NCBI GenBank assembly: GCA_016871195.1
Contig: VFZN01000002.1
Span: 196,690 to 260,689 of the forward strand
Length of the DNA: 64,000 nucleotides
Direction of reading: 5' to 3'
Source: Acidobacteriota bacterium
Lineage (GTDB): Bacteria; Acidobacteriota; Vicinamibacteria; Vicinamibacterales; UBA2999
The first letter of the stretch is position 1. Each line of letters opens with the position of its first letter. The notes below the pieces were generated by a model. The model saw nothing but the letters and a program-made list of their open reading frames with translations, did not search any database and was not told where the DNA came from. Of this stretch, positions 34,763 through 58,886 are shown piece after piece. The position numbers and the translations under genes are program-made.

Positions 34763-34794
34763 CGCCACTCTCCTCACGCGGTCGTGCGCCACAC

Positions 34795-36360: not shown

Positions 36361-37220
36361 GCCTCTGCCTCACGCAGCACCCGGGCCGCCGTCATCACTA
36401 CTGCGCGGCAGAAGTCAGCCAGCGTCGCCTGCAGCGCCGCAAAGCCGTCGCTGCGGGTGAATCGCGCTTCCTCCATGTAGAGCGCACGATTGAGTTCCAC
36501 CTGCAGGCTGTGGCGTCCGTCAGCCGGGGCACCGAACGTGGCAACCAGATGCCCGCCCTGATACGGGTCATTCACCTGCGTCCGCAGGCCGGCCTCGCGG
36601 AACCACTCGGCGGCCCACTGTGTCAGCGCCGGAGACGCCGTCGTCCCCCGCCGGTCACTGACCACCACATCGGGACGCATCGCCCCGGCATCAACATTCA
36701 TGGCGTTACCGCGTGATTTCATCGAATGCGCGTTGATATGCACGACATGGCCGTGCTGCCGCACGGCACGCGTTAACGCATCGGCCACCGCCGCGCGATA
36801 GGGCCGGTAGTGCCGAACCAGCCGGGCCATCACGGCCTCAGTGCTCAGCGGTTCGGCGTACATCGGCACGCCGGGCAGCGCCAGTCGCCTGATGAGCCCC
36901 ATCCCGCGGCGCGAGTAGTCGGTCGGCGCCAGCGGGTGCGGCCACGGCGACGCCAGCAGTGCAGGGTCGATGTCATCTTCGCTGCGGTTGGCGTCAATGT
37001 AGGCGCGCGGAAACGTCGCCCGCACCAGCGTGCCGCCGGTCGCAGGCGCGCCGGCCCACAGTTCGTCGACAAAGGCGTCCCACGACGTCAGGATTGATTC
37101 GCGGGACGCCATCGGCGTGAAGTCGGCAGGCCACTGCATGCCGCTATGCGGTGAATCGACCACGAGCGGCGCCGCCGGCACGGTGGGCGGGATCACGACC
37201 ACCGGGTCGGCGACGCGCAT
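36357..37220 (-). CDS. N-formylglutamate amidohydrolase (FGase, PF05013-type) family protein
   Basis: ORF 36357..37679, trimmed to ATG 37220 (MRVADPVVVIPP...), which removes the overlap with the upstream gene. Blocks are VVDSPHSGMQWP, FPRAYIDANR, INAHSM and NDPYQGGH. Confidence 0.75.
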   Translation of the reverse strand: MRVADPVVVIPPTVPAAPLVVDSPHSGMQWPADFTPMASRESILTSWDAFVDELWAGAPATGGTLVRATFPRAYIDANRSEDDIDPALLASPWPHPLAPTDYSRRGMGLIRRLALPGVPMYAEPLSTEAVMARLVRHYRPYRAAVADALTRAVRQHGHVVHINAHSMKSRGNAMNVDAGAMRPDVVVSDRRGTTASPALTQWAAEWFREAGLRTQVNDPYQGGHLVATFGAPADGRHSLQVELNRALYMEEARFTRSDGFAALQATLADFCRAVVMTAARVLREAEA

Positions 37221-37240
37221 GTCAGTCACCAGCGGCCGTC

Positions 37241-41444: not shown

Positions 41445-42740
41445 TCAGCGACGGTTCAGATAATCGATCGTCAGCGACGTGAGCGCACGCACGCCCACGG
41501 GCAGCGCCGACTCATCGGCAAAAAAGAGCGGCGAGTGATTCTGCGCCGCTGTGGCCTCGCCGCCCGGAGGCGTGACGCCGAGAAAGAAGAACAGGCCCGG
41601 CACCTGCTGCTGGAAGTAGGAAAAGTCTTCGGCCGTGCCCGTCATCGGGGCTTCACTCACGCGGTCATCCCCTGCGGCACGCCGCAGCGAGGGCAGCATC
41701 TGCCGGGTCAGCTCCGGATCGTTCTGCGTCACGGGATACCCGAGCCCCCACGTCACCGTCGCCGACCCACCGGCAGCGGCGGCATAGTTGGTCGCCATGT
41801 CGGTGATGCGCTGCCGAATCTTCGTGCGCTCGCCCTCATCGAAGGCGCGGACGGTGCCCACGATTTCCGCCGAGTCGGGAATGATGTTCGAGCGGTTGCC
41901 GCCGGAAAACTTCCCGACGGTGACCACCGCCGGTGCCTGCGAGATATTGACGGCGCGCGACACGATCGACTGCATCGACGTCACCAGCTGCGCCCCGATC
42001 ACGATCGGATCGACGCCGCCCCACGGCACAGCCCCGTGCGTCTGCTTGCCGTTGATGACGATGGTGAACTCGTCGGCGCTGGCCATGAGCGGGCCCGAGC
42101 GATAGCGGATGGTACCTGCGGTGAAGGGAAACACGTGCAGACCGAACACGGCATCGACCTTCGGGTTCTCGAGTACGCCGGCCTTCACCATCGGCTCGGC
42201 ACCGCCCGGCCCCTCTTCGGCCGGCTGGAACAGGAACTTGACGGTGCCCGCCAGCTCGGCCCGGTGCCGGGCCAGCACGGTCGCCGTGCCCATGAGAATG
42301 GCCATGTGATTGTCGTGACCGCACGCATGCATCACGCCGGTCTCCTGGCCGTTCCACGTGACCTTCTGCGTCGACTTGAAGGGCAGGTCGACCTGCTCGG
42401 TCACCGGCAGCCCGTCCATATCGGCGCGCAGGGCCACTACCTTGCCGGGGCGTCCGCCTTTCAGCACGCCGACCACGCCCGTGCCGCCGACGCCGGTCTG
42501 CACCTCCATGCCCAGCGAGCGCAGGTGCTCGGCGATGACGCGCGACGTGCGCGTCTCCTGCAGCCCCAGTTCGGGAAACTGATGGAAGTCGCGGCGCCAG
42601 GTGACCACCTGGGGAAGAATTTCCGTGATCGTGCGATCGACCGCGGGCGTCGCCGGCGTGCCGGCGGCAGTCTGTGCCTGGCTGGCCAGGGGAGCGGACA
42701 CGGTGAGGCCGAGGGCGAACCCCGCCAGGTACATGCGCAT
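41445..42740 (-). CDS. Secreted M20D-family amidohydrolase (N-acyl-L-amino-acid amidohydrolase / hippurate-hydrolase type)
   Basis: ORF 41445..43217, trimmed to ATG 42740 (AGGAGG 8 nt upstream). The signal peptide is MRMYLAGFALGLTVSAPLASQAQ. The block MHACGHDNHMAILMG and the typical M20D length support the call. Confidence 0.82.
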   Translation of the reverse strand: MRMYLAGFALGLTVSAPLASQAQTAAGTPATPAVDRTITEILPQVVTWRRDFHQFPELGLQETRTSRVIAEHLRSLGMEVQTGVGGTGVVGVLKGGRPGKVVALRADMDGLPVTEQVDLPFKSTQKVTWNGQETGVMHACGHDNHMAILMGTATVLARHRAELAGTVKFLFQPAEEGPGGAEPMVKAGVLENPKVDAVFGLHVFPFTAGTIRYRSGPLMASADEFTIVINGKQTHGAVPWGGVDPIVIGAQLVTSMQSIVSRAVNISQAPAVVTVGKFSGGNRSNIIPDSAEIVGTVRAFDEGERTKIRQRITDMATNYAAAAGGSATVTWGLGYPVTQNDPELTRQMLPSLRRAAGDDRVSEAPMTGTAEDFSYFQQQVPGLFFFLGVTPPGGEATAAQNHSPLFFADESALPVGVRALTSLTIDYLNRR

Positions 42741-42832
42741 GCTGTGCCTCCTGAGGCTCCGCATTCTACTACCCGCCTGCGCGGGGCACCGAGTGATCTG
42801 TGCGCGGGCGTTTCCGGCGAGGCAGCGGACCG

Positions 42833-43417
42833 CTAGCCGATCTTCCGGCCGAGCCAGGTGAACGGGCCTCCGGGACTTCTCTCGGGGGGAGCCTGACCCA
42901 CCATGTCCTTGGCCGCATACTTCGCGCTGACCTGCCACACAAAATCCATCTCGGACATGATGGCCCCGAGGGCCATGCGCGACTCGATGACGAGCAGCAC
43001 CGACGCATACAGCATGAACACCGACCCGAGCAGGCCCAGCCCGGCGGCGACCCACGTGAACGACCGGGCCGCTGCCGAGACCACCGCAATGGCCACGCTG
43101 CTCGAAATGAACGTGCACAGCGCCGCATAGAACGCCACCATCGCGCGCTGCAGCAGGCGTGCACGGGAGGTCTGCCGATCGAGCTGTTCGAACACGATGA
43201 CGCGGCGCTCTTCCCACAGAGGATCATCCTCGCGGCTGCGCGACAGGGCCTCAAAGCGCTCTGACAGGGTCCGCACGCGGTCGACCACGCGCCCCATGCG
43301 GGTGCTGGTCGAGAAGATGAGCGCCCCGCATGCGGAAATCAGCACGGCTGGCGTGATCATCGCCGTCAGCACGGCGAGGGCGTTCTGGGGGCTTTCGAGA
43401 CGCGACAGCCAGTCCAT
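42833..43417 (-). CDS. DUF2721-family membrane protein
   Basis: ORF 42833..43474, trimmed to ATG 43417 (MDWLSRLESPQNALAVLTAMITPAVLISACGALIFSTSTRMGRVVDRVR). TACAAT lies 6 nt upstream. Confidence 0.65.
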   Translation of the reverse strand: MDWLSRLESPQNALAVLTAMITPAVLISACGALIFSTSTRMGRVVDRVRTLSERFEALSRSREDDPLWEERRVIVFEQLDRQTSRARLLQRAMVAFYAALCTFISSSVAIAVVSAAARSFTWVAAGLGLLGSVFMLYASVLLVIESRMALGAIMSEMDFVWQVSAKYAAKDMVGQAPPERSPGGPFTWLGRKIG

Positions 43418-47562: not shown

Positions 47563-49224
47563 ATGTCTCATCCGGCCTCTGGTGATCGCCCCGCCGGCAA
47601 CCCCGCATCGACACGGTCGCCCGCGGTGGGCCGCCACGGCATGATCGCCACCAGCCAGCCGCTGGCATCGGCCGCCGGGCTGCGCGTGCTGATGGAGGGC
47701 GGCACTGCCGTCGACGCCGCGGTCACCGCCGCTGCCGTGCTGGCCGTCGTCGAGCCCGCCATGAACGGCATCGGCGGCGACCTGTTCGCTCTCGTCTACG
47801 ACCCAGCCACCTCGGCGGTGTATGGCCTCGACTCGTGCGGCGCTGCCGGGCGGCTGGCCTCGGCCGGAACCCTCAGGGCCCAGGGCCTCACCGAGATGCC
47901 CGCAGGGGGGCCGCTCACGGTCACCGTGCCGGGTGTCGTCGACGGCTGGCACCATCTGCTGCAGCGCTTCGGGCAACGCACGCTCGCCGACGCCCTCGCA
48001 CCGGCCATCCGTCACGCCCACGACGGGTTCCCCGTGGCGGAACTGGCCGCCGCCGAGTGGGACGCCGCCGCCACGCGCCTCGCGGCCGACCCGGCGGCCG
48101 CGCGCACGTTCCTGCCCGGAGGACGTGCCCCTGTGCACGGTGCGCTCTTCAGCAACCCCGCACTGGGCCGCAGTCTGGAAGTCCTGGCTCGTGATGGCCG
48201 CGACGCCTTCTATCGGGGACCCCTCGCACACGCCATCGTCGACGACCTGCAGCAGCGTGGCGGACTGCTCACGGCCGAGGATTTCGCCGCGCACGCCGCC
48301 GCATGGGTCACGCCGCTCCGCGGCACCTATCGCGGCATCGACCTCTACGAGATGCCCCCGAGCACGCAGGGCTTCGTCGCCATCGAGATGCTGAACATCC
48401 TCGAGCACGACGACATCGCCGCACTGGGGCACGACAGTGCCGACTACCTGCACCTGCTCTGCGAAGCCAAGCAGATCGCGTTCGCCGATCGCACCGCATT
48501 CCTCGCTGATCGCCTCCGCATGCCGCCCGCGGTCCTCGAGCGCCTCGTCTCGAAGGCGTATGCCGCCGAACGCAGGCGTGACATCGACATGATGCAGGCA
48601 CGCACGCACGGCCCAGCGAGGGTCGCCGACATCGCCGGCCGTGCCCGTCCCGTGCGTGACTTCGCTGGCGAAGATCGGGGCGACACCGTGTATCTCACCG
48701 TGGCCGATGGCTCGGGCATGATGGTGTCGTTCATCCAGTCGATCTTCGCGTCGTTCGGGTCAGGCCTCGTCGCCGGAGACACAGGCATCACCCTGCACAA
48801 CCGCGGTTCTGGCTTCTCGCTTGAGGCCGGGCATCCCAATGAACTCGCACCCGGACAGCGCCCCCTGCACACGCTGGTGCCGGCCATGCTGGTGCGCGAC
48901 GGGGCCCCCTGGGTCACCTTCGGCGTCATGGGCGGCGACAATCAGGCGCAGGCCCATGTGCAGATCGTGGCCAACCTCGTCGACTTCGGCATGCACATCC
49001 AGCAGGCCGGTGATGCGGCCCGCCTGCGGGACCAGGGACACTCGGTCGCCATCGAACGCGGGGTGCCCGCCGAGGTGCGGCAGGCACTGGCCGCCCGGGG
49101 ACACCTGGTTGTCGACGGCCGCGGCCTGATGGGTGGCTATCAGGGCATCATGCGCGACTCGCACACGGGCGTGCTGCGGGGCGGGTCTGATCTGCGCAAG
49201 GACGGCCTGGCCATTGGCTTCTGA
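47563..49224 (+). CDS. ggt: Gamma-glutamyltransferase-family protein without signal peptide
   Basis: ORF 47227..49224, trimmed to ATG 47563, which removes the overlap with the divergent gene. Blocks are GMIATSQPLASAAGLRVLMEGGTAVDAAV, PAMNGIGGD and the autoprocessing/nucleophile block GDTVYLTVADGSG. Confidence 0.85.
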   Translation: MSHPASGDRPAGNPASTRSPAVGRHGMIATSQPLASAAGLRVLMEGGTAVDAAVTAAAVLAVVEPAMNGIGGDLFALVYDPATSAVYGLDSCGAAGRLASAGTLRAQGLTEMPAGGPLTVTVPGVVDGWHHLLQRFGQRTLADALAPAIRHAHDGFPVAELAAAEWDAAATRLAADPAAARTFLPGGRAPVHGALFSNPALGRSLEVLARDGRDAFYRGPLAHAIVDDLQQRGGLLTAEDFAAHAAAWVTPLRGTYRGIDLYEMPPSTQGFVAIEMLNILEHDDIAALGHDSADYLHLLCEAKQIAFADRTAFLADRLRMPPAVLERLVSKAYAAERRRDIDMMQARTHGPARVADIAGRARPVRDFAGEDRGDTVYLTVADGSGMMVSFIQSIFASFGSGLVAGDTGITLHNRGSGFSLEAGHPNELAPGQRPLHTLVPAMLVRDGAPWVTFGVMGGDNQAQAHVQIVANLVDFGMHIQQAGDAARLRDQGHSVAIERGVPAEVRQALAARGHLVVDGRGLMGGYQGIMRDSHTGVLRGGSDLRKDGLAIGF

Positions 49225-49279
49225 CCGGTCAGTCATATGATGAGGGCCATCTGGCGTACGTCGTCGAAGGGAGCCACTG

Positions 49280-49933
49280 ATGAATCGCATCGCACTCATG
49301 CTGGTGACAGGCGCACTGGTCGTTTCGGTCGCTTGTGGAAAGTCTGACGCCGAGAAGCAGGCGGAAGAGGCGGCCGCCAACCTCGAGAAGGCCAGTGAAG
49401 CCCTCTCAAAGGCCGCCGAGGGCAAGGGCTCGGCTGAAGACCTGGCCGAGGGCATGAAGGCCCTCACCGACGCCATGAACGGCGACGGCAAGACCGTCGA
49501 CCCGGTGTCGTTCCAGTCGCTCGAGGCCCTGCTGCCCAGCCTCTCCGGTTGGGAACGCGATACGCCACGCAGCGAGCGCATGACCTCGCCGGTGGCCTAC
49601 GCGCAGACCGAGGCCCATTACTCACGCGGTGATGCGTCGCTCGACATCACCATCACCGACTCGGGATTCGCGCAGGCCGTACTCGCCCCGTTTTCGATGA
49701 TGGCCATGATGGGGATGAACCGCGAATCGCGCGAGGGCTACGAGAAGGGCGTCACCCTGAAGGGTCAACCCGGCTTTGAGGAATGGCGCAACGAAAACCG
49801 TGACGGCGAACTCACCTTGCTCGTCGGCAAGCGGTTCCTCGTGGCCGTGAAGGGCAGCCAGTTGCCCGGGGCCGGCACCCTCCAGGACGCCGCCCGCGCC
49901 ATCGACTTCGGCAAGCTCGCCGCGCTGCAGTAA
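49280..49933 (+). CDS. Lipoprotein of unknown function
   Basis: GGGAG lies 8 nt upstream. The lipobox is LVVSVAC. There is an N-terminal helical Ala/Glu/Lys-rich segment. I recognised no family motif. Confidence 0.6.
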   Translation: MNRIALMLVTGALVVSVACGKSDAEKQAEEAAANLEKASEALSKAAEGKGSAEDLAEGMKALTDAMNGDGKTVDPVSFQSLEALLPSLSGWERDTPRSERMTSPVAYAQTEAHYSRGDASLDITITDSGFAQAVLAPFSMMAMMGMNRESREGYEKGVTLKGQPGFEEWRNENRDGELTLLVGKRFLVAVKGSQLPGAGTLQDAARAIDFGKLAALQ

Positions 49934-49943: not shown

Positions 49944-50942
49944 CTAGATCTGGAAGCCCGACCGCAACGGGTCGTCGGCGTCCAGCACAAACGTGTGCAT
50001 CCCGGTCATCCAGGCCTCACCCTCGATGACCGGGATCACCGCCGTGCGCTCCTCCATCCGCTGCAGCCCCGCCACCCGGCCGGTCAGTGTGAGTCCGAGC
50101 AGCGATTCCTGCACAAACGGCTGATCGTCAAGCAGCAGCCCCATCTCGGTCAGCACCGCCATCACGGCGGCCGTGGCCGTGCCACTCGCCGTGCGATCCA
50201 CCTGACCATCACTGCCCACCGCCACGCTCCGCAGGTGCGCATCACCCGTCGCCGGCCCGGTGAACACGGTCCCCGCCACGCCCGCCAGGTGCTCGTGCTG
50301 CGGATGCTGCACCCGCCGCAGCGCCGACACCTCGGCCGCAATCGCCACGCCCATGCGCCGCAGATCGTCGAGCCGATCGGGTCTGAGCGGAATGCCCACC
50401 GCCTCGGCATCCACCACCGCATGGAAGACCCCGCCGAACGCCAGATCGGCCCGCACGGTGCGCTCCTGTACCACCACGGGCACGCCGGCCTCCCACACAA
50501 ACGCGGGCACACCGGTGACACGCACCTGCGCCCCCTGTGCCGGTCCGCTGCCGTGAGACACATCCACGTCGGCCGTCACCCGGCCCGCCACCGTATCGAA
50601 GCGCCACGTGCTGATGTCACCACGCAGCAGGCCCTCACCAACGGCCAGCGCCGCCACGGCCATCAGTGCCTGCAGGTTGAGGGCCGGCCATCCACTGCCG
50701 TGCATGAACAGCACCCCGGCATGGCCATCCTCCGATGCCGCGTCGGTCAGCATCGCCCCCCACAGGTCGCGATGCCCCCGGGGCTCGCGCATCAGCGCCA
50801 GCCGATAGTGATCGAGCCGCCGCTCGGCCCACGCCTGCCGCTCGTGCATGCGCCGCCCCTGCGGGGCCGGCAACCCGTCGACCACGAGCCGAAGCGGCCC
50901 GCCGGCCACATGCGCATCCAGCGTCCGGAACGTATGAGTCAC
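49944..50942 (-). CDS. Proline racemase / 4-hydroxyproline epimerase superfamily protein, apparently lacking both catalytic Cys residues
   Basis: This is the C-terminal half of ORF 49944..51845. The start is set at GTG 50942 (GATAAT 6 nt upstream): (M)THTFRTLDAHVAGGPLRLVVDG.... Family blocks are GVLFMHGSGWPALNLQAL (versus GV.FfN..Gyl.MCGHgtI) and VDRTASGTATAA (versus DRSPCGTGTSA). Confidence 0.72.
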   Translation of the reverse strand: MTHTFRTLDAHVAGGPLRLVVDGLPAPQGRRMHERQAWAERRLDHYRLALMREPRGHRDLWGAMLTDAASEDGHAGVLFMHGSGWPALNLQALMAVAALAVGEGLLRGDISTWRFDTVAGRVTADVDVSHGSGPAQGAQVRVTGVPAFVWEAGVPVVVQERTVRADLAFGGVFHAVVDAEAVGIPLRPDRLDDLRRMGVAIAAEVSALRRVQHPQHEHLAGVAGTVFTGPATGDAHLRSVAVGSDGQVDRTASGTATAAVMAVLTEMGLLLDDQPFVQESLLGLTLTGRVAGLQRMEERTAVIPVIEGEAWMTGMHTFVLDADDPLRSGFQI

Positions 50943-50948
50943 CGCGGC

Positions 50949-50954
50949 ATTATC
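50949..50954 (-). promoter_or_regulatory. -10-like GATAAT, 6 nt upstream of GTG 50942 (leaderless-type)
   Basis: The minus strand reads ctGATAATgccgcgGTG. Confidence 0.4.
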
Positions 50955-50984
50955 AGTCAGGCCGTGGTGTACGCTGTGGGCGGC

Positions 50985-51914
50985 GTGCGCGCGTTCTATT
51001 CCGATCATTTCGTCCTGCCGCTGCCCGAGGGCCACCGCTTTCCGATGGCCAAGTATTCGGGGCTGCGCCAGCGCATCCTCGACAACGGCATCCTTCCGCG
51101 CACCGCCCTGCACGAGGCCCCGGCCGCCTCCTGGGATGACCTCCGGCTCGTGCACACACCCGCCTACGTCGACGCCGTGGCCACCGGCACCGTGGCCCCC
51201 GACATCCAGCGCCGCATCGGCTTTCCGTGGACGCCCGGCATGGTCGAGCGTTCGCGCCGCTCGGTCGGTGCCACCATCGCCGCCACGCAGGCGGCGCTCG
51301 ATGACGGCCTCGCCGCCAATCTCGCGGGGGGCACACATCATGCGTTTGCCGATCGCGGCGAAGGCTACTGCGTCTTCAACGACGTGGCGGTCGCCGCACG
51401 CGTGCTGCTGCGCGACTCTGCCCTCTCGCGCGTCGCCATCGTCGACTGCGATGTGCACCAGGGCAACGGCACCGCGGCCATCTTCCACCACGACCCGTCC
51501 GTGTTCACCTTCTCGATGCACGGCGCGACCAACTTTCCCTTCCGGAAGGAAGAGAGCGATCTCGATATCGCCCTGCCGGATGGCACGGGCGACGATGCGT
51601 ATCTGACGCTGCTTGAGACGCACCTGGCGCAGGTGCTCGACAGCCATCAGCCCGAGTGCGTGTACTATCTCGCCGGCGCCGATCCCTACGAAGGTGACCG
51701 CCTCGGCAAATTGAAACTCACGATCGCCGGCCTGCGTCGCCGCGACGACATCGTGCTGCAGCGGTGCCACGCCCTCGGCATTCCGACGGTCATCACCATG
51801 AGCGGCGGCTATGCCTATGACATCGACGCCATCGTCACGATTCACGCGGCCACCATCGAGGTGGCGGCCCGTCTCTCCGGAGTCTTGCCATGTCCCAGTC
51901 GTTCCGCCTGCTGA
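50985..51914 (+). CDS. Histone-deacetylase-family (class II HDAC / acetylpolyamine-amidohydrolase-like) zinc deacetylase
   Basis: This is the C-terminal half of ORF 49995..51914. The start is set at GTG 50985 ((M)RAFYSDHFVLPLPEGHRFPMAKY, a typical family N-terminus). Alternative GTGs are at 50964, 50967 and 50976. Catalytic blocks are GGTHHAFADRGEGYCVFND, VDCDVHQGNG, GADPYEGD and SGGY. Confidence 0.8.
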   Translation: MRAFYSDHFVLPLPEGHRFPMAKYSGLRQRILDNGILPRTALHEAPAASWDDLRLVHTPAYVDAVATGTVAPDIQRRIGFPWTPGMVERSRRSVGATIAATQAALDDGLAANLAGGTHHAFADRGEGYCVFNDVAVAARVLLRDSALSRVAIVDCDVHQGNGTAAIFHHDPSVFTFSMHGATNFPFRKEESDLDIALPDGTGDDAYLTLLETHLAQVLDSHQPECVYYLAGADPYEGDRLGKLKLTIAGLRRRDDIVLQRCHALGIPTVITMSGGYAYDIDAIVTIHAATIEVAARLSGVLPCPSRSAC

Positions 51915-52879
51915 ATGAAGCCGAAGTCGCTTCGCTGCTCTCGATGGGCGAGCTCATCGGCGTGATGGAAAGTGCGCTGGCGCGCTTCTCGGCCGGTGAT
52001 GTGCTGCAGCCGGTGCGCACCGTGCTGTCTGTCGGTCCGACGAAGGCGTTCTTCGGCGTGATGCCCGCCTACCTGCCCGACCCCGGCCGCATGGGCGCCA
52101 AGCTGGTGACGGTGTTCAACGGCAACGAGGCCCGCGGATTGCCCTCGCACCTGGCGACCATCCTGCTGCTCGACGCCGAGACCGGGGCCCTGTGCGGCAT
52201 CCTCGATGGCCGGTTCATCACCGAAGCGCGCACCGCTGCCGTATCCGCCGTCTCGGCGCGTCACCTGTCGCGCGTCGAGGCCTCGACACTCGCCATCCTT
52301 GGCACCGGCGTGCAGGCACGCAGCCACCTCGAGGCCCTGAAGGAAGTGCGCGGCCTCAAGGACATCCGGGTGTGGTCGCCCCGTCTCACGAGCCGTGAAC
52401 GCTTTGTGGAAGAGATGGCCCCGCACGTCACCGGCACGCTGCGGGCCACGCGTCATGCCGAGCAGGCGGTCGAAGGCGTCGACCTCATCGTGCTGGCGAC
52501 CTCGTCACCGACACCGGTCATCGAAAATGGCTGGGTGAGCGACGGCGCGCACATCATGTCCGTCGGGGCCTGCCGTCCCGACCAGCGCGAGATGGACCCG
52601 CGCCTCGTGGCCCGCGCCGAACTCTATGTCGACTCGAAGGCGGCCGCGCTCGTCGAGTCGGGCGACGTCGTCATGGGTATCAGGGAAGGCCGCTTCGGCG
52701 AGGCACACCTGCGGGGAGAACTCGGCGAGGTGGTGCTGCGCCGCGTGCATGCCCGCACGTCGCACGATCAGGTCACCATCTTCAAGTCGCTCGGCATGGC
52801 CGTCGAGGACGTGGCCGCAGCCGGCCTCGTGCTCGACCGCGCACACGAGCGTGGCATCGGCCAGTGGCTCGAGATCTGA
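51890..52879 (+). CDS. Ornithine cyclodeaminase / mu-crystallin family protein (candidate delta1-pyrroline-2-carboxylate reductase or cyclodeaminase)
   Basis: The opening is MSQSFRLLNEAEVASLLSMGELIGVMESAL. The Rossmann block is LAILGTGVQARSHLEAL. The gene overlaps the HDAC-like 3' end by 25 nt. Confidence 0.8.
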   Translation: MSQSFRLLNEAEVASLLSMGELIGVMESALARFSAGDVLQPVRTVLSVGPTKAFFGVMPAYLPDPGRMGAKLVTVFNGNEARGLPSHLATILLLDAETGALCGILDGRFITEARTAAVSAVSARHLSRVEASTLAILGTGVQARSHLEALKEVRGLKDIRVWSPRLTSRERFVEEMAPHVTGTLRATRHAEQAVEGVDLIVLATSSPTPVIENGWVSDGAHIMSVGACRPDQREMDPRLVARAELYVDSKAAALVESGDVVMGIREGRFGEAHLRGELGEVVLRRVHARTSHDQVTIFKSLGMAVEDVAAAGLVLDRAHERGIGQWLEI

Positions 52880-54032: not shown

Positions 54033-55466
54033 CTAGAGATTGAGAAACTTCTGGATGCGCTCGATCAGCGTGTCCTTGTGCGATAGCCGCCCGGCATCGG
54101 CGGCATCGGCCACCTGCTGCGCCTCGGCAAGGCCGGTGCGCCGCTCGGCAATCACACGCCCGATGGGTTCCAGCAGCGACGGATGTTCGCGCAGCAGCCC
54201 GGCCAGTGTCCCGGCACTGATCTCGAGCACCTGACAGGCAGAGGTCGCCCTGACCGTCGCTGACCGCGGAGCGCCGGTGAGCGCCGACATTTCGCCAAAG
54301 ACGCCGCCGACACCGATCGTGGCCACCTGCTGCTGGGAGGGTTCGAGCACCACCGCCACGTCACCCGACAGCACGACGAACATCGACCGTCCCGATGTGC
54401 CCTGCCGCACGATGGCCTCGCCGCGCGTGAACCACTGCAGCGGACTGGCCGTCGCGAGGCGCTGCCACAGGCTGGCAGGCAGGTGTGCGAAGAGCTCAAC
54501 ACGCCCCACGACCTCGGCGGCGCGCGCCTCGTCGTCGGTCGTCTGCGCGGGCGGCTCGGGGCGGCTGTACTCGACCTGAATCGGCCATGGAATCTCGATG
54601 CCGCTGCGACGGAACTCGTACCACAGGTTCGAGCGCACCTGATCGCGTGCCACCCGATCGGCGGCATAGTCGTCGATCCAGAACCTGATGCCGTAGTCGA
54701 CCGACGAGGCGCTGAAGGCATCGATGGTCACCAGCGGCGCCGGTGTCCGGTTGACCAGGGGCGCGTTGTCGAGGGCACGGCCGATGGCTTCCTTCACCGC
54801 GTGCGGCGGCGTGAGGTAGCTGACGCCAACGGTCACCTCGAGTCGCGTCGGCACGACCGGCTCGGAATAGTTGAGGATGACGTCCTTGGCCACCGTGCTG
54901 TTCGGCACGATCAGGAACTGGCCCATCTTGGTATGCAGCTTCGTCGCCCGCCAGGTCACTTCCTCGACGCGCCCCTCATGGCCGCCGATGCTGACCCACT
55001 GCCCCACGCGGAACGGCTTTTCGATCTGGATGGCCAGCCCCGCGAACAGATTGCCCAGCGTGTCCTGCAGGGCAAAGCCTACAACCACCGCGCCGACGGC
55101 AGAGGTCGCCAGCAGCTGCTCGCGCAAGATCAGCGTGGCGATCACCCCGAACAGCACGAGCACCGACGCATCCTGCACGATGGCCGGCATGCGCTCAGAC
55201 GGCCGCGATTCCTTCCACGGATTCGCCGCGACAGCCACCGTCATCGTCAGGACGGCGAGGACAACGGTGAGGCGCGCCAGCCCGGCCAGCAGCACCTGAT
55301 CGCCCAGCCCCTGGGCCAGTGCCGCATCGAGCCCCAGTGACACGACGAGCAGTGCGGCCGAAAACAGCAGGCGTCCGCGGATGTACCGGCTGCGGATGAT
55401 CACCGCCAGCAGCGCGATGGCCAGCAGGCCCGCAGCGGCGGCGATGACAGCGGTGGTCAGCGGCAC
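54033..55466 (-). CDS. MscS-family mechanosensitive channel with C-terminal cyclic-nucleotide-binding domain (bCNG-type)
   Basis: GTG start. The protein has TM helices and the MscS core LGNLFAGLAIQIEKPFRVGQWVSIGGHEGRVEEVTWRATKL. The CNBD is ...GEAIVRQGTSGRSMFVVLSG...FGEMSALTGAPRSATVRA. Confidence 0.82.
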   Translation of the reverse strand: MPLTTAVIAAAAGLLAIALLAVIIRSRYIRGRLLFSAALLVVSLGLDAALAQGLGDQVLLAGLARLTVVLAVLTMTVAVAANPWKESRPSERMPAIVQDASVLVLFGVIATLILREQLLATSAVGAVVVGFALQDTLGNLFAGLAIQIEKPFRVGQWVSIGGHEGRVEEVTWRATKLHTKMGQFLIVPNSTVAKDVILNYSEPVVPTRLEVTVGVSYLTPPHAVKEAIGRALDNAPLVNRTPAPLVTIDAFSASSVDYGIRFWIDDYAADRVARDQVRSNLWYEFRRSGIEIPWPIQVEYSRPEPPAQTTDDEARAAEVVGRVELFAHLPASLWQRLATASPLQWFTRGEAIVRQGTSGRSMFVVLSGDVAVVLEPSQQQVATIGVGGVFGEMSALTGAPRSATVRATSACQVLEISAGTLAGLLREHPSLLEPIGRVIAERRTGLAEAQQVADAADAGRLSHKDTLIERIQKFLNL

Positions 55467-55480
55467 GTGATCGCCTTGCG

Positions 55481-56644
55481 CTATGCGCCCGCGGCCGTCA
55501 GGCCGCCAGCCTTGCGGAATGCCTGCAGGTCGGCTGCGGAAATCGACACGGCCACCAGCGCCGGGTTGCTCCCGCCGCGCGCATCACGTTCGGGATCGAC
55601 TCCGCGGGCCGCGCCCGAGCCGGTCACCTGCGCCTGCGATTTTTCGCCGCCGCTGCCGGGCATCATGCGGCCCAGCCCGAAGCTGCGGCGCCTGGGCTCG
55701 TCCTTCTTCGCCTTGTCGTCTGCCGGGGCCGGCGCCGGTGCAGCCTTGCTGTCGCTGCCGGTCAGGCCGGCGGCACCGGCATCAACGGTGGCAATGTCGG
55801 AAAGGGGCTTCGGGGTGTAGGTGATGGCCTGGCGATAGCGCTCTGACAGCGTCACCGTGCCCGTCAGCTTCTGCTTCGTGATGGTGCCGGCAATGCCATC
55901 GAGGCGCGACTGCATGTCGGGATGCGAGGCGAACAGCCCACGCCGTTCCCTGGACGAGGCGTTGCGCTCCTTGAGGCGTGCGAGGATCGTGCCGAGCGCC
56001 GCGGGCTGATAGCCGACGCGACTGATGAGGGCCACGCCTGCCGCATCAGATTCGCGCTCGTCCTCGCGCCCGAATCCACGCTCGACAATCGACTCGTAGG
56101 TCGCGGCGACCACCCGATCGAGCAGCGCCGCGTTGCCAGAGAGAGTTTCCGAGGCCCCCATCTGCACGGCCTTCGTCTTCTGCATCGACCGGATGGTGTG
56201 CTTTCCGGTGATGTGCACAATCTCGTGCGCCAGCACGCCCGCCAGTTCGGCCTCGTCCTGCATCAGCGCCAGCGCGCCGCGTGTGATGTGCACATATCCG
56301 CCGGGCGCCGCAAAGGCGTTGACGCCGTCTGTGTCGAGCACGATGAACGTCCACGGCAGCGCCGGACGGCTGCTGGCGGCGGCGATGGTGCGGCCGACGA
56401 GGGACACATAGCGATGCACGGGCGCACTCTGCACCACGCCGTAGCGCTCGCGGATGCGCGCGCTGACATCCTGCCCCAGCTGCTGCTCCTCGGCGTCGGT
56501 CACCTGCAGGTCGCGCAGTTCACCGACCTTCTTCACGCCCTCGGTGACTTTGCCCAGCTGGCCGAGCTGTCCGGCCCCGGCCTCGACGCCCGACAGGGTG
56601 ATCAGCAGGGCCACCACGGTCATTCCCGTTCGACTGACTCTCAT
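55481..56644 (-). CDS. Secreted M48-family zinc metallopeptidase with low-complexity Ala/Pro/Lys linker and short C-terminal module
   Basis: The protein has a signal/anchor. The HEXXH is LAHEIVHITGKH and the downstream ligand region is ERESD. Its start overlaps the cyclase stop (ATGA). Confidence 0.8.
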   Translation of the reverse strand: MRVSRTGMTVVALLITLSGVEAGAGQLGQLGKVTEGVKKVGELRDLQVTDAEEQQLGQDVSARIRERYGVVQSAPVHRYVSLVGRTIAAASSRPALPWTFIVLDTDGVNAFAAPGGYVHITRGALALMQDEAELAGVLAHEIVHITGKHTIRSMQKTKAVQMGASETLSGNAALLDRVVAATYESIVERGFGREDERESDAAGVALISRVGYQPAALGTILARLKERNASSRERRGLFASHPDMQSRLDGIAGTITKQKLTGTVTLSERYRQAITYTPKPLSDIATVDAGAAGLTGSDSKAAPAPAPADDKAKKDEPRRRSFGLGRMMPGSGGEKSQAQVTGSGAARGVDPERDARGGSNPALVAVSISAADLQAFRKAGGLTAAGA

Positions 56645-58665
56645 GCGCGCACCTCGAAAATCTCCGCGGGCTGCGTCTTGCCCTTCACGGTCACCGTCCC
56701 CAGCGGCCGCACATCGTACTGTCCCCGCAGCAGGGCCCGTGTCGCCTCGCTGATGATGATACGCGTACCATACTCCTTGTTGAGCGACTCGAGGCGCGCC
56801 CCCAAGTTGACCGCGTCGCCGATGACCGTGTAGCTCATCACCTGATCCGATCCGATGTTCCCGGCGACCATCTCGCCGCTGTTGATGCCGATGCCGATGT
56901 CGAACGGCGGCGCCCCCCGGGTGGCGCGCTCGGCATTGAGGGCTGCCAGCGCCCGCACCATCGCCAGCGCCGTCTGCACCGCGTGGTCGGCGTGGGCCTC
57001 GTCATCGACCGGCGCGCCGTAGAGCGCCATCACCATGTCACCGACAAACTTGTCGAGCGTCCCCTGGTGGGCAAACACGAGCGCCACCATGCGCGTGAAA
57101 TAGTCGTTGAGCTGCGCCACCATCGCCTCGGGCGACTCGCGTTCGGTCAGGCTGGTAAACCCGCGCATGTCCGAAAACAGCACCGTCATGAACCGCCGCG
57201 TGCCGCCGAGCTGCGCCAGCTGCGGCGCCTCGAGCAGTTGCTGGTAGACCGCCTTCGACACATAGCGCGAGAAGAGACGCGTCACCTTCCGTCGCTCGCG
57301 CCCTTCGACCACATAGTGCCAGCCGAGATCGCCGACAAACGCCAGCCCCAGCGCCGCCAGCGGCATCACCATCGGCCACCACACACCACCGCCGAAGGTG
57401 ACGACCGTGCCCCACACCCACGCGCCGCCGGTCACCAGGGCCACGGCCCCGGCCACCCACACGGTCGACAGGGCCCCCACCACCGACACCAGCAGCGTCA
57501 GGGCCACCATGGCCCCGAGGGCCTGCCAGCGCGGGGCCTGCACCAGCTGGCGCCCGCCGAGCATCGCGTCGATGGTCTGCGCATGCACCTCGGGGCCGGC
57601 CATCTTCCCTTCGGTGAATGGGGTGGTGAACACATCGTGCAGCCCCTGGGCCGTCACGCCCACCACCACCACCTTGTCGCGGAACTGCGCAGGCGCCACA
57701 GACGGCGTCACTCCTTCCATCAGCTCCTGTTGCGCAAGAAACAGGTCATAGAACGACTGCCTCGGCAACGCCGCAGTGCCATCCGAGCCGACGGCAGCGG
57801 CGGCCCAGGGCAGCAGCGCCCGGCAGGTCGTGCGCACCGTGCCATCCGGTTCCTCGAGGCGACCGGCCATCAGCGGCCAGTCAAGGGCCCCCGCGCGCAG
57901 GTGCGTCGGCGAGGCAGTGAGGTCACGTCCGGTCAGGCCTTGTGCCAGCAGCACCGCGGCCAGCGGCAGCGAGGGCAGCACCACTGGCCCACCGCCGGGA
58001 CGCTCGACGCTCACGAGCGGCACCACGCGCCGCAGCGGACCGTCGGCGTCGTAGACCATCAGGCTGTGGCCCACGCCCGCCGATGCCTGCGCCAGCTCGG
58101 GAAACGGCAGCACGGTCTGCGGACGTCCTTCGACACAGGCCGTGTGTCCGAGCCGGGCCGTGCGGTCGGGCAGCACCGACACATCCACCGGCAGCGCCCG
58201 CGCGGCATCGCGCGCCCCGCTGCTGGCTGCCTCGGCGGCATGCACGACCATACCCGCCGCCCGGGTCGAGTCGACGAGTGCCTGGTCCGATTCCTGACCC
58301 GTCCACTCGGTCTCACCGACCATGAACGTGCGCCGGTCCCCTTCCGCAAACAGCACGTCGTAGACGACCGCCCGCGCCCCCGCGGCCGCCAGATAGTCGA
58401 CGACGAGCGCATGCACCAGGCGCGGCCATGGCCAGCGGCCCACCAGTGGCTCCATGCGCCGCAGGCTCTCATCGTCAATGGCGACGACGATGACGGGTGA
58501 CGAGGGGCTGAGGCGATCCGCCGTCGTCTGTCGTACGCGCCAGTCGTAGGTCTTGAGCTCGATGGTGTCGGCGAAGCCTGTCAGACTCAGCCCGGCCGCC
58601 ACGAGGGACGCGGCCAGGGCGAGCAGCAGCCGTGGCGCAAGGCGAGTGAGTCGACCAGCGGGCAT
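56641..58665 (-). CDS. CHASE2-domain membrane sensor fused to a class III adenylate/guanylate cyclase
   Basis: ORF 56641..58686 (GTG). I prefer ATG 58665 (GATAAT 6 nt upstream) or 58668. The CHASE2 opening is TGFADTIELKTYDWRVR, followed by TM helices. The cyclase core is VTVLFSDMRGFTSLTE...FVGDMVMALYGAP...GINSGEMVAGNIGS...YTVIGDAVNLGARLE. Confidence 0.85.
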   Translation of the reverse strand: MPAGRLTRLAPRLLLALAASLVAAGLSLTGFADTIELKTYDWRVRQTTADRLSPSSPVIVVAIDDESLRRMEPLVGRWPWPRLVHALVVDYLAAAGARAVVYDVLFAEGDRRTFMVGETEWTGQESDQALVDSTRAAGMVVHAAEAASSGARDAARALPVDVSVLPDRTARLGHTACVEGRPQTVLPFPELAQASAGVGHSLMVYDADGPLRRVVPLVSVERPGGGPVVLPSLPLAAVLLAQGLTGRDLTASPTHLRAGALDWPLMAGRLEEPDGTVRTTCRALLPWAAAAVGSDGTAALPRQSFYDLFLAQQELMEGVTPSVAPAQFRDKVVVVGVTAQGLHDVFTTPFTEGKMAGPEVHAQTIDAMLGGRQLVQAPRWQALGAMVALTLLVSVVGALSTVWVAGAVALVTGGAWVWGTVVTFGGGVWWPMVMPLAALGLAFVGDLGWHYVVEGRERRKVTRLFSRYVSKAVYQQLLEAPQLAQLGGTRRFMTVLFSDMRGFTSLTERESPEAMVAQLNDYFTRMVALVFAHQGTLDKFVGDMVMALYGAPVDDEAHADHAVQTALAMVRALAALNAERATRGAPPFDIGIGINSGEMVAGNIGSDQVMSYTVIGDAVNLGARLESLNKEYGTRIIISEATRALLRGQYDVRPLGTVTVKGKTQPAEIFEVRA

Positions 58666-58671
58666 CATGGG

Positions 58672-58677
58672 ATTATC
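58672..58677 (-). promoter_or_regulatory. -10-like GATAAT immediately upstream of the tandem ATG-ATG of the cyclase gene
   Basis: The minus strand reads cgcGATAATcccATGATG. The spacing is 3 nt to the first ATG and 6 nt to the second. Confidence 0.4.
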
Positions 58678-58886
58678 GCGGGGCACCCGCGACTGGGCAG
58701 TCGGGAGAAGACGGAGGCATCCTCAGGAACGGTAGCAACGGCACGGGCAACCGTGCACGAGGATAGCGGATTAGCTGCCGCAGTGCTCCGCTGGAAGGAG
58801 AGACAGGGGATGCTCCGTGGCAGGGCTGCCTGCGAGGTGCGAATACCCACCGCGCCCGGCACCGGCGAGAGCATCGCCCCCGGACA

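What the first reader, a model, noticed from the sequence alone, without database searches (positions are those of the whole stretch)
49944..52879. Proline-racemase-family protein without either catalytic Cys, divergent from an HDAC-like deacetylase overlapped by an OCD/mu-crystallin gene
Established knowledge: Cys/Cys members of this superfamily are proline racemases or 4-Hyp epimerases. Members with Thr at the second position are trans-3-hydroxy-L-proline dehydratases. Their product, delta1-pyrroline-2-carboxylate, is reduced by OCD/mu-crystallin-family reductases. A PRAC-like and OCD-like pairing therefore suggests a hydroxyproline-type pathway.

In this gene, my ungapped by-eye alignment puts Asn (about residue 89, PALNLQAL) where the first Cys (MCGH) should be. 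It puts Ser (about residue 253, DRTASGT) where the second Cys or Thr (DRSPCGT) should be. That pair matches neither known activity class.

An apparently intact zinc deacetylase (HHA, D-x-D-x-H, GGY blocks) sits between the two genes. It starts about 42 nt from the PRAC-like start on the other strand, and the OCD-like gene overlaps its end by 25 nt. A deacetylase coupled to a cyclic-imino-acid module could mean that an N-acetylated substrate, or a different cyclic amino acid, is processed. The nearby GGT and many collagen- or peptide-type peptidases fit an imino-acid scavenging context.
Basis: partly seen in the sequence, partly recalled or inferred. Interest (0 to 1): 0.6.

Follow-up and report, generated by a model that had tools for sequence, protein, structure and literature searches.

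The report
Proline-racemase homologue lacking both catalytic cysteines
A soil acidobacterium carries a well-folded proline-racemase-family protein that has lost both catalytic cysteines yet is still kept by selection, so it can no longer do the family's known chemistry and has probably been put to another, still unknown, use.

Summary
The minus-strand gene 49944-50942 encodes a full-length proline-racemase-family protein (PF05544). It has Asn89 in place of the first catalytic Cys and Ser253 in place of the second. A class IV HDAC-like gene starts 42 nt away on the other strand, and an OCD/mu-crystallin gene overlaps its end by 25 nt.

The Asn/Ser pair is not a feature of the three-gene module. 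At least 17 related Vicinamibacterales loci carry a Cys/Cys protein at the same position, always next to the OCD gene. The Asn/Ser form occurs only in one narrow lineage (five loci plus one partial protein, 80-98% identical).

That lineage changed 35 of 138 family-invariant residues and evolved faster on its stem. It still shows purifying selection (dN/dS 0.16-0.22), intact reading frames and a confident racemase fold (pLDDT 94, TM 0.93).

Two other lineages at the same locus also lack the cysteines: Ser/Gly (HDAC and OCD absent) and Ala/Ala (OCD absent). Cys-less relatives are common in metagenomes.

My best reading is a repurposed, non-racemising racemase-fold protein. Its function is unknown.

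The HDAC belongs to clade A of class IV, whose natural substrate is unknown. Its link to the other two genes is confined to this bacterial group.

The parts
49944..50942 (-). PRAC-like gene (332 aa, GTG start, stop included). Proline racemase family, catalytic pair Asn89/Ser253.
   Evidence: PF05544 at 2.6e-73 over the full profile. PDB alignments. AF2 pLDDT 94.2, pTM 0.93. Foldseek TM 0.93 to 6R76 and 1W61. dN/dS 0.16-0.22. Start supported by codon-position bias.
50661..50693 (-). First catalytic loop, GWPALNLQALM, in place of GWSTMCGHG(V/I)(I/V). The Asn89 codon AAC is at 50676-50678. Gly90 is replaced by Leu and His91 by Gln.
50175..50198 (-). Second catalytic loop, DRTASGTA, in place of DRSPCGTG. 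The Ser253 codon AGT is at 50184-50186. Asp249, Arg250, Gly254 and Thr255 are retained.
50943..50984 (.). 42-nt divergent intergenic region. A GATAAT hexamer lies 6 nt upstream of the PRAC-like GTG. The same or a similar hexamer (GATAAT or CATAAT) is present in three of the four Cys/Cys orthologues aligned (L007, L014, L096; not L015).
   Evidence: The consensus promoter scan found no full sigma-70 match, so any promoter role is inference only.
50985..51914 (+). Class IV (HDAC11-like) clade-A zinc deacylase homologue, 309 aa, catalytic residues intact.
   Evidence: PF00850 at 2.1e-62. Best PDB hit is 9RJE (C. reinhardtii HDAC11-1, clade A) at 6.3e-72. It carries the clade-A signatures Arg in H-R-F and Thr in GGTHH (PMC13325672). 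dN/dS 0.09.
51890..52879 (+). OCD/mu-crystallin-family gene (329 aa), resembling Pyr2C reductases. It overlaps the HDAC end by 25 nt (51890-51914).
   Evidence: PF02423 at 1.1e-79. Best PDB hit is 6T3E, the T. litoralis Pyr2C reductase, at 3.8e-67. No NCBIfam equivalog cut-off is reached. dN/dS 0.07-0.09.
54033..58686 (-). Conserved synteny anchor: MscS channel with a cNMP-binding domain (54033-55466), M48 peptidase (55481-56644) and CHASE2 adenylate/guanylate cyclase (56641-58686). These genes mark the same locus in all related genomes.
47641..49933 (+). Syntenic flank on the other side: gamma-glutamyltranspeptidase (about 47641-49224) and a 217-aa protein with no Pfam match (49280-49933).

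Best explanation
The gene is the positional orthologue of a Cys/Cys proline-racemase-family enzyme. In Vicinamibacterales that enzyme is paired with a Pyr2C-reductase-like OCD gene and usually with a class IV clade-A HDAC-like gene.

**Shown**
- In one narrow lineage both catalytic thiols were replaced (Cys to Asn, Cys to Ser).
- The Gly-His after the first Cys and about a quarter of the family-invariant residues were replaced too, including ligand-contacting and domain-closure residues (Met88 to Leu, Tyr174 to His, Tyr61 to Trp, Tyr223 to Ala).
- The protein still folds as a racemase and is still under purifying selection.

**Inferred**
[quoted passage not shown] It also cannot carry out the Cys-dependent alpha-proton abstraction of trans-3-Hyp dehydratases.
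- It therefore persists as a repurposed, non-racemising racemase-fold protein. Most likely it binds a small carboxylate or imino-acid-like ligand, or acts as a structural or regulatory partner. The Asp-Arg pair and the Gly-Thr of the second loop are retained, which fits residual ligand binding.
- The neighbouring HDAC and OCD genes remain fully functional and do not depend on its catalysis.
For: **Residue pair and fold:**

**Positional orthology.** Cys/Cys genes sit at the same place, between the CHASE2-M48-MscS block and GGT, in L007-L010, L012-L023, L025, L102 and L103.

**Acceleration confined to this gene.**
- Asn/Ser versus L007: PRAC 57% identity, against HDAC 70% and OCD 74%.
- Between the Cys/Cys loci L007 and L012: PRAC 71%, about the same as HDAC 69% and OCD 72%.

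**Remodelling of conserved sites.**
- 35 of 138 positions that are at least 95% invariant in Cys/Cys proteins are changed.
- Inside the Asn/Ser clade the changed positions vary as freely as ordinary variable sites: 26% against 40% (p=0.16).
- The retained positions vary far less: 6% (p=0.003). This points to a released active site on a conserved scaffold.

**Continued selection.**
- dN/dS is 0.16-0.22 at dS 0.5-0.8. Cys/Cys orthologues of similar divergence give 0.07-0.19.
- No stop codon or frameshift in five loci.
- A conserved upstream GATAAT hexamer.

**Long-term persistence of such proteins.**
- The Ser/Gly clade (18 clusters, 61-84% identical) at the same locus keeps its new residues: Ser89, Leu90, Gln278 and His82 in 17 of 17 sequences.
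- It is as constrained as its flanking genes, although HDAC and OCD are gone.

**Ligand and closure residues** are taken from PMC9309405.
Against: - No biochemical data exist. Ser/Cys members are active 4-Hyp epimerases (PMC4113996), so the family tolerates unexpected active sites.
- His174, newly placed at a ligand-contacting position and invariant in the clade, could be a new general base.
- HDAC and OCD stay tightly linked and strongly constrained (dN/dS 0.07-0.09). That could mean the three proteins still work together on a substrate.
- dN/dS is only about 1.5 times that of the Cys/Cys orthologues. This would also fit a fully active enzyme with a new specificity.
- NG86 estimates in a 68% GC genome with dS near saturation are crude.
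- The clade is shallow (five sequences), so conservation of the new residues is weakly informative.
Confidence: 0.5

Rival explanations
1. It is a neofunctionalised enzyme. The remodelled pocket (Asn89, Ser253, His174, several large-to-small replacements) catalyses a different reaction, or acts on a different cyclic or N-substituted amino acid. It may work on the product of the adjacent clade-A HDAC-like amidohydrolase and feed the OCD-family reductase. This is essentially the first reader's idea.
For: - Purifying selection is close to that of active orthologues.
- HDAC and OCD are retained, overlap, and are strongly constrained in this lineage.
- The trio is kept through a rearrangement in L102, with translational coupling of HDAC and PRAC.
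- Asn/Ser and Ser/Gly proteins changed 19 of the same invariant positions, against 8 expected (p=1.6e-6). Seven changed to the same residue, including a two-step Gly to Leu. That looks directional rather than random.
- There is precedent for non-canonical active sites in the Ser/Cys 4-Hyp epimerases (PMC4113996).
Against: - The shared replacements mostly remove functional groups or fill the catalytic loop (Arg to Gln, His to Gln, Asn to Gly, Phe to Val, Gly to Leu).
- Changed positions are not more conserved than background within the clade.
- The two other Cys-less lineages at this locus lack OCD (Ser/Gly and Ala/Ala). HDAC is absent from the Ser/Gly loci, so the Cys-less protein does not need those partners.
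- No candidate base is shared between the Cys-less clades.
- The HDAC link is absent outside Vicinamibacteria.
Confidence: 0.3
2. It is a dead relic on its way to loss. Catalysis was lost recently and the gene persists only through inertia or weak selection against disruption of the divergent promoter region.
For: - Stem acceleration and loss of a quarter of the invariant residues.
- Formerly invariant sites now drift.
- Gene callers mis-start the gene.
- No Shine-Dalgarno-like sequence is visible upstream.
Against: - The loss predates the split of lineages separated by dS 0.5-0.8, yet all five reading frames are intact and dN/dS is about 0.2, not about 1.
- 103 retained invariant positions remain 94% invariant.
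- The fold is predicted with high confidence.
- The older Ser/Gly clade shows that Cys-less forms persist over long divergence.
Confidence: 0.1
3. The Asn/Ser gene does not descend in place from the local Cys/Cys gene. It belongs with the Ser/Gly clade (and perhaps the Ala/Ala gene) to one older Cys-less subfamily, and replaced the resident allele by recombination between conserved flanks. This concerns origin, not function, and is compatible with any of the functional readings above.
For: - Neighbour-joining bootstraps place Asn/Ser next to Ser/Gly in 80% of replicates at variable sites and 99% at all sites.
- The first loop is strikingly similar: GWPALNLQALM against GWPAISLHGLM.
- Six group-consensus sites support Asn/Ser with Ser/Gly, and none supports the species-tree grouping.
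Against: - Asn/Ser is more similar to L007-type Cys/Cys proteins (57% overall; up to 47% at variable sites) than to any Ser/Gly protein (42-50%; up to 40%).
- Flanking genes, HDAC and OCD all place the host next to L007, L014 and L015 and far from the Ser/Gly hosts.
- Three of four sites diagnostic for the L007 group are shared by Asn/Ser.
- All six sites supporting the grouping are former invariant positions, where convergence is expected.
- Both branches are long, and simple-distance neighbour-joining is prone to long-branch attraction.
Confidence: 0.25

Closest known systems
[quoted passage not shown]
   Same: - Best sequence and fold match for the PRAC-like protein: 6.6e-58, TM 0.93.
- Best match for the OCD gene: 3.8e-67.
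- Same pairing of a PRAC-family gene with an OCD-family gene.
   Different: - That enzyme has Cys/Thr with the first Cys as base. Here the pair is Asn/Ser.
- Ligand and closure residues Met103, Tyr188, Tyr76 and Tyr241 (PMC9309405 numbering) are replaced by Leu, His, Trp and Ala.
- NCBIfam dehydratase cut-offs are missed: 211 against 540, and 133 against 550.
Cys/Cys proline racemases and 4-hydroxyproline epimerases (TcPRAC 1W61, A. sticklandii ProR 7PB3, T. litoralis ProR-like 6J7C)
   Same: - Same Pfam family and fold.
- Its own positional orthologues in related genomes are Cys/Cys proteins.
   Different: - Both catalytic Cys and the Gly-His of MCGH are absent.
- Equivalog cut-offs are missed: 233 against 556 for ProR, and 194 against 376 for 4HypE.
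- Even the Cys/Cys orthologues pass no equivalog cut-off, so the ancestral activity is itself unassigned.
Ser/Cys 4-hydroxyproline epimerase of Agrobacterium vitis (B9K4G4, PDB 4LB0); the 'Ser-Cys/Ser-Thr type, function unknown' of Watanabe et al.
   Same: A non-canonical catalytic pair within the same superfamily. This is the precedent that sequence alone can mislead (PMC4113996, PMC4364671).
   Different: That enzyme keeps one Cys. The present protein keeps none. Identity is only about 26%.
Ser/Gly clade of Vicinamibacteria (P0069, P0121-P0137) and the Ala/Ala protein of L024. All are uncharacterised.
   Same: - Same syntenic locus and no catalytic Cys.
- 19 shared remodelled invariant positions, 7 with identical replacements.
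   Different: - Different residue pairs and a different serine codon family.
- More distant host lineages.
- OCD is absent next to them, and HDAC is absent from the Ser/Gly loci. The Asn/Ser lineage keeps both.
Class IV HDAC clade A (C. reinhardtii HDAC11-1, 9RJE; V. cholerae HdaH, 9GKV)
   Same: - The neighbouring HDAC-like gene has an intact zinc site.
- It carries the clade-A signatures, Arg in the H-P-F-D position and a Thr gatekeeper (PMC13325672).
   Different: - Clade A has no known substrate and no reported gene-cluster association.
- Here the gene is translationally coupled to OCD, or to PRAC in L102, but only within Vicinamibacteria.

Membership tests
Proline racemase superfamily (Pfam PF05544) | Full-length match above the gathering score | tested here: met
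   247.4 bits against a cut-off of 27; profile positions 2-325 of 325.
Proline racemase superfamily (Pfam PF05544) | Two-domain pseudo-symmetric alpha/beta racemase fold | tested here: met
   AF2 pLDDT 94.2, pTM 0.93. Foldseek TM 0.93 to 6R76 and 1W61.
Proline racemase / 4-Hyp epimerase (Cys/Cys type) | Catalytic Cys in the MCGH loop | tested here: not met
   Asn89 in LNLQ.
Proline racemase / 4-Hyp epimerase (Cys/Cys type) | Catalytic Cys in the DRSPCGT loop | tested here: not met
   Ser253 in DRTASGT.
Proline racemase / 4-Hyp epimerase (Cys/Cys type) | NCBIfam equivalog score cut-off | tested here: not met
   ProR 232.6 against 556. 4HypE 194.3 against 376, 114 against 450 and 76 against 442.
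Proline racemase / 4-Hyp epimerase (Cys/Cys type) | Racemase or epimerase activity | not testable with these tools
   Needs an enzyme assay.
trans-3-Hyp dehydratase (Cys/Thr type) | First Cys retained as the base, Thr at the second position | tested here: not met
   The pair is Asn/Ser. NCBIfam 211.4 against 540 and 132.8 against 550.
trans-3-Hyp dehydratase (Cys/Thr type) | Neighbouring Pyr2C reductase gene | tested here: inconclusive
   An OCD-family gene lies two genes away, and its best PDB hit is the Pyr2C reductase 6T3E. It reaches no Pyr2C-reductase equivalog cut-off: 246.8 against 322, 180.5 against 266 and 151.9 against 400.
Ser/Cys 4-Hyp epimerase (B9K4G4 type) | Ser at the first position and Cys at the second | tested here: not met
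   The pair is Asn/Ser.
Pseudoenzyme (catalytically inactive homologue kept by selection) | Loss of the residues essential for the family's chemistry | tested here: met
   Both Cys residues are lost, with Gly90, His91 and 31 further invariant positions.
Pseudoenzyme (catalytically inactive homologue kept by selection) | Continued purifying selection and an intact fold | tested here: met
   dN/dS 0.16-0.22. Five intact reading frames. Retained invariant sites are 94% invariant. pLDDT 94.
Pseudoenzyme (catalytically inactive homologue kept by selection) | Demonstrated absence of catalytic activity | not testable with these tools
   Needs biochemistry.
Class IV HDAC, clade A (the neighbouring gene) | Intact zinc and catalytic residues, with the clade-A signatures (Arg in H-R-F, Thr gatekeeper in GGTHH) | tested here: met
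   The signatures are as defined in PMC13325672.
Conserved PRAC-HDAC-OCD gene cluster | Co-occurrence of the three genes in relatives beyond shared macro-synteny | tested here: inconclusive
   - Present in the Vicinamibacteria loci, including the rearranged, translationally coupled L102.
- HDAC is absent in L103.
- No PRAC, and no OCD homologue above about 30% identity, in the other 68 clade-A HDAC loci.

The most novel reading that the evidence does not exclude
Cys-less proline-racemase-fold proteins (Asn/Ser here, Ser/Gly and Ala/Ala at the same locus, and many Ser/Ser, Ser/Gly and Asn/x lineages in metagenomes) may form an unrecognised functional class of the superfamily. That class would have arisen repeatedly from Cys/Cys enzymes through convergent remodelling of the same roughly 19 pocket positions, with a new ligand or reaction. 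In addition, the conserved coupling of a clade-A class IV HDAC to PRAC and OCD genes in Vicinamibacteria may point to N-acyl imino or amino acids as the long-sought natural substrates of that orphan HDAC clade.
Probability: 0.25. Interest if true: 0.75.

Novelty: new variant of a known kind. Interest (0 to 1): 0.5.

Why it matters
- Function in the proline racemase superfamily is routinely predicted from the catalytic residue pair. The sources that name this protein family's relatives call them "proline racemase" or "trans-L-3-hydroxyproline dehydratase". For this protein those names are almost certainly wrong.
- The locus is a natural experiment. The same orthologous gene is Cys/Cys in many genomes and Cys-less in at least three lineages, with matching changes in whether the partner reductase is kept. 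That makes the fate of an enzyme after loss of catalysis directly testable by back-mutation and ligand screening.
- About half of the closest 50%-identity cluster representatives have non-canonical pairs. The uncharacterised space is therefore large.
- Separately, the cluster gives a concrete, though lineage-restricted, lead on the substrate of clade-A HDAC11-like enzymes. A 2026 study left that substrate open (PMC13325672).

Tried and rejected
- **Alignment artefact: rejected.** Four PDB pairwise alignments, three multiple alignments and the structure model all agree.
- **Pseudogene: rejected.** Reading frames are intact, dN/dS is about 0.2, and third-position bias holds even in the first 31 codons that gene callers omit.
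- **Asn/Ser as a property of the three-gene module: rejected.** The syntenic orthologues are Cys/Cys.
- **General HDAC-PRAC-OCD association across bacteria: not found.** 68 of 80 HDAC loci lack PRAC within 8 kb, and OCD appears only as a ~30% match in two Methylibium loci. In Burkholderiales the HDAC neighbours look like nitroreductase, phasin, patatin and thioesterase genes, judged by eye and not checked against Pfam.
- **More Asn/Ser members.** The metagenome scan gave only L094 (98%) and L095 (80%). The GTDB species-representative scan returned no locus from this lineage; the best HDAC identity was 76%.
- **Independent origin versus common origin with the Ser/Gly clade.** Identity by site class, flanking-gene identity, diagnostic sites, quartet counts and neighbour-joining bootstraps gave conflicting signals. 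This stays unresolved.
- **Literature.** No paper in the library pairs "proline racemase" with "pseudoenzyme".
- **Promoter scan of the 42-nt gap.** It found no sigma-70 consensus match.
- **Other gaps.** NCBIfam gave no match for the HDAC. I could not check whether the genome also holds a Cys/Cys paralogue outside the 64-kb window.

Full report
**1. What is in the sequence**

The region holds three genes.
- A PRAC-like gene on the minus strand, 49944-50942. It starts at GTG and encodes 332 aa.
- An HDAC-like gene on the plus strand, 50985-51914. It starts at GTG, and in-frame GTGs also lie at 50964, 50967 and 50976.
- An OCD/mu-crystallin gene on the plus strand, 51890-52879.

The divergent gap is 42 nt. 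OCD overlaps the HDAC end by 25 nt.

Pfam matches are full length: PF05544 at 2.6e-73, PF00850 at 2.1e-62 and PF02423 at 1.1e-79. No NCBIfam equivalog cut-off is reached by the PRAC-like or OCD proteins, and the HDAC has no NCBIfam match.

Automatic gene calls in the protein collection start the PRAC-like gene at Met32 (301 aa; P0001 and P0003). The upstream GTG is the better start. It aligns with the Met of the orthologues. Substitutions in the first 31 codons fall 3-4, 0-2 and 10-14 on codon positions 1, 2 and 3.

**2. The residue pair**

phmmer alignments to 6R76, 7PB3, 7QPO and 1W61 and MAFFT alignments with 120 and 238 homologues give the same answer.
- LNLQ replaces MCGH, so Asn89 sits on the first catalytic Cys.
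- DRTASGTA replaces DRSPCGTG, so Ser253 sits on the second catalytic Cys (or Thr).
- The codons are at 50676-50678 and 50184-50186.

The AlphaFold2 model is confident (pLDDT 94.2, pTM 0.93). It superposes on the T. litoralis trans-3-Hyp dehydratase and on the T. cruzi proline racemase with TM 0.93.

The papers read here recognise Cys-Cys, Cys-Thr and Ser-Cys/Ser-Thr types (PMC4364671, PMC3958920). Ser/Cys proteins have been shown to be 4-Hyp epimerases (PMC4113996). Asn/Ser is not among these types.

**3. Where the gene comes from**

Asn/Ser occurs only in a tight clade. Its members are the window, L094 (98%), L005/P0003 (87%), P0004 (84%, partial), L001/P0002 (81%) and L095 (80%). The next relatives are 57% identical Cys/Cys proteins annotated as Vicinamibacterales.

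Those Cys/Cys genes lie at the same position. On one side are a CHASE2 cyclase, an M48 peptidase and an MscS/cNMP channel. On the other side are a 217-aa protein and GGT. OCD and HDAC lie next to the PRAC gene (L007-L010, L012, L013; L014-L023, L025).

The window's protein is therefore the positional orthologue of an ordinary Cys/Cys enzyme. By flanking genes its host is closest to the L007, L014 and L015 genomes.

**4. How it evolved**

*Acceleration is specific to this gene.*
- Between the Cys/Cys loci L007 and L012, PRAC is as conserved as its neighbours: 71% identity, against HDAC 69% and OCD 72%.
- Between the window and L007, PRAC drops to 57%, while HDAC is 70% and OCD 74%.

*Conserved sites were remodelled.* Of 138 positions at least 95% invariant in Cys/Cys proteins, 35 are changed.
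- Both catalytic loops are affected.
- Glu15 is replaced by Gly.
- The ligand-contacting Met and Tyr are replaced by Leu88 and His174.
- The Tyr-Tyr pair that closes the domains is replaced by Trp61 and Ala223. Residue roles come from PMC9309405.

*Constraint within the Asn/Ser clade differs by site class*.
- Retained invariant positions: 6% variable.
- Changed positions: 26% variable.
- Ordinary variable positions: 40% variable.
- Fisher tests give p=0.003 for changed against retained, and p=0.16 for changed against variable.

So the scaffold is still constrained, and the old active site is largely released.

*The gene is not decaying.* dN/dS is 0.16-0.22 at dS 0.5-0.8. Cys/Cys pairs of similar divergence give 0.07-0.19, and HDAC and OCD give 0.07-0.09. 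All five reading frames are intact.

A GATAAT hexamer lies just upstream of the start. The same or a similar hexamer is present in three of the four Cys/Cys orthologues aligned. This is inference only, because the promoter scan found no consensus match.

**5. Other Cys-less lineages at the same locus**

- A Ser/Gly clade (P0069, P0121-P0137; 61-84% identical; GWRPLSLHALM and DRSPGGxATAA) sits beside the same CHASE2-M48-MscS block. HDAC and OCD are absent there.
- L024 carries an Ala/Ala protein next to HDAC, with no OCD.
- In every Cys/Cys locus examined OCD is adjacent. This includes L103 (OCD and PRAC without HDAC) and L102 (OCD divergent from HDAC-PRAC, with an ATGA stop/start overlap between HDAC and PRAC).

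The reductase thus tracks the catalytic cysteines, except in the Asn/Ser lineage.

The Ser/Gly proteins keep their new residues across the whole clade. Their dN/dS (0.29) is like that of the flanking genes (0.26-0.28). Cys-less forms can therefore persist for a long time.

Asn/Ser and Ser/Gly changed 19 of the same invariant positions, against 8 expected (p=1.6e-6). Seven changed to the same residue.

Whether this reflects convergence or common origin is unresolved.
- For in-place origin from a Cys/Cys gene: overall and variable-site identity, host relationships, and three of four diagnostic sites.
- For common origin with Ser/Gly: neighbour-joining bootstraps group the two long branches.

Beyond this locus, the 150 best 50%-identity representatives include only 56 Cys/Cys and 21 Cys/Thr proteins. 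The rest carry Ser/Ser, Ser/Gly, Cys/Gly, Cys/Ser, Asn/Gly, Asn/Asn and other pairs. That query profile was built from Cys-less sequences, so the fraction is biased upward.

**6. The neighbours**

*OCD.* Its best solved relative is the T. litoralis Pyr2C reductase (6T3E, 3.8e-67).

*HDAC.* It is a class IV enzyme.
- Its best solved relative is the clade-A C. reinhardtii HDAC11-1 (9RJE, 6.3e-72).
- It has the clade-A Arg (GHRFP) and Thr gatekeeper (GGTHH), and all zinc and catalytic residues.
- Clade A showed no peptide deacylase activity, and its substrate is unknown (PMC13325672).

*Distribution of the HDAC link.* An HDAC-centred scan of species-representative genomes returned 80 loci.
- Twelve, all with Vicinamibacterales-type synteny, carry the PRAC gene beside HDAC. 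Nine of them show OCD downstream. In two more the contig ends at or before that position. L024 has none.
- The other 68 come from Burkholderiales, Gemmatimonadota, Chloroflexota, Planctomycetota, Myxococcota and other groups. None has a PRAC homologue within 8 kb, and OCD appears only as a ~30%-identical match in two Methylibium loci.

The rearranged but coupled trio in L102 argues for a real functional link within Vicinamibacteria. The evidence does not reach further than that group.

**7. Interpretation**

*Shown:* orthology to Cys/Cys genes, loss of both thiols and of many pocket residues, a preserved fold, and continued selection.

*Inferred:* the protein cannot carry out the thiol-dependent proton abstraction behind every characterised activity of the family. 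It survives in a different role.

| Reading | Confidence |
|---|---|
| Non-racemising ligand-binding or partner protein | about 0.5 |
| Enzyme with new chemistry | about 0.3 |
| Relic heading for loss | about 0.1 |

The question of origin (in-place descent versus an older Cys-less subfamily) is separate from these three readings.

The pathway idea is only partly supported. The PRAC-OCD link is real, and the trio is conserved locally. But the unusual pair is a derived state of one lineage, and nothing shows an N-acetylated substrate.

**8. Verdict**

This is a new variant of a known kind. It is of moderate interest as a clean evolutionary case of catalytic-residue loss. It also gives a lead on two orphan groups: Cys-less PRAC-fold proteins and clade-A HDAC11-like enzymes.

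Noticed in passing
P0239-P0386 (representatives): Non-canonical catalytic pairs are very common among relatives. Of the 150 best 50%-identity representatives, 56 are Cys/Cys and 21 Cys/Thr. There are also 17 Ser/Ser, 11 Ser/Gly, 8 Cys/Gly, 8 Cys/Ser and 4 Ser/Cys, plus Asn/Gly (P0240), Asn/Asn (P0249), Asn/Cys (P0324) and others. The query profile was built from Cys-less sequences, so the fraction is biased upward.
   Followed up: partly
L102:5034-8002: A rearranged version of the trio: OCD on the minus strand, then HDAC and a Cys/Cys PRAC gene on the plus strand. The HDAC stop and the PRAC start overlap as ATGA, which suggests translational coupling.
   Followed up: yes
L097:6682-9026, L098:6582-8990, L024:6963-8909: Two further Cys-less forms occupy the same syntenic locus. 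The Ser/Gly form has a TPR gene where OCD and HDAC would be. The Ala/Ala form sits next to HDAC without OCD.
   Followed up: yes
window 50850-50942 (the first 31 codons of the PRAC-like gene): Automatic gene calls in the protein collection (P0001, P0003; 301 aa) start the gene at Met32. That cuts off the conserved N-terminal strands. The GTG at 50942 is the supported start.
   Followed up: yes
window 50949-50954; L007, L014 and L096 upstream of the PRAC start: A GATAAT or CATAAT hexamer lies 6-8 nt upstream of the start codon in the Asn/Ser genes and in three of the four Cys/Cys orthologues aligned. It may be a -10 element giving a very short or absent leader. No -35 match was found.
   Followed up: partly
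L007:6726-6980 (C-terminus of the HDAC gene): The L007 HDAC orthologue carries a roughly 80-aa low-complexity tail with repeated SDFEFRR-like units. The other orthologues lack it.
   Followed up: no
L026-L093, within 3.5 kb of the HDAC match: In Burkholderiales and other non-acidobacterial genomes the clade-A HDAC gene is flanked repeatedly by ORFs that look like nitroreductase, phasin, patatin-like lipase, 4HBT thioesterase and FKBP genes. It is never flanked by PRAC. These identities were judged by eye and not checked against Pfam.
   Followed up: partly
L024 (CAYLTD010000004.1) and L019 (JAYWEJ010000157.1): These records are titled 'uncultured Bifidobacterium sp.' and 'Acidimicrobiia bacterium'. 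Both carry Vicinamibacterales-type synteny and 65-71% identical HDAC, so they look like mis-binned or mislabelled MAG contigs.
   Followed up: no
window 3503-4915, 11158-12993, 16249-17517, 18722-21478, 27785-29389, 31784-35269, 41445-43217: The window is unusually rich in peptidases and amidohydrolases: three M28, plus M19, M14, M20 and a PD40-amidohydrolase fusion. It also holds three TonB-type or carboxypeptidase-regulatory-domain outer-membrane barrel proteins. This fits a peptide-scavenging lifestyle but is not specific to hydroxyproline.
   Followed up: partly
window 34795-37679: An AbgT-family transporter gene lies directly downstream of an N-formylglutamate-amidohydrolase-family gene on the minus strand, with a 4-nt overlap. 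They may form an operon for uptake and deacylation of small acylated amino acids.
   Followed up: no
window 54033-58686 and all related loci: A CHASE2 adenylate/guanylate cyclase, an M48 peptidase and an MscS channel with a cNMP-binding domain form a strictly conserved triad across Vicinamibacteria. The cyclase and M48 genes overlap by 4 nt. This hints at a cyclic-nucleotide-gated mechanosensitive module.
   Followed up: no
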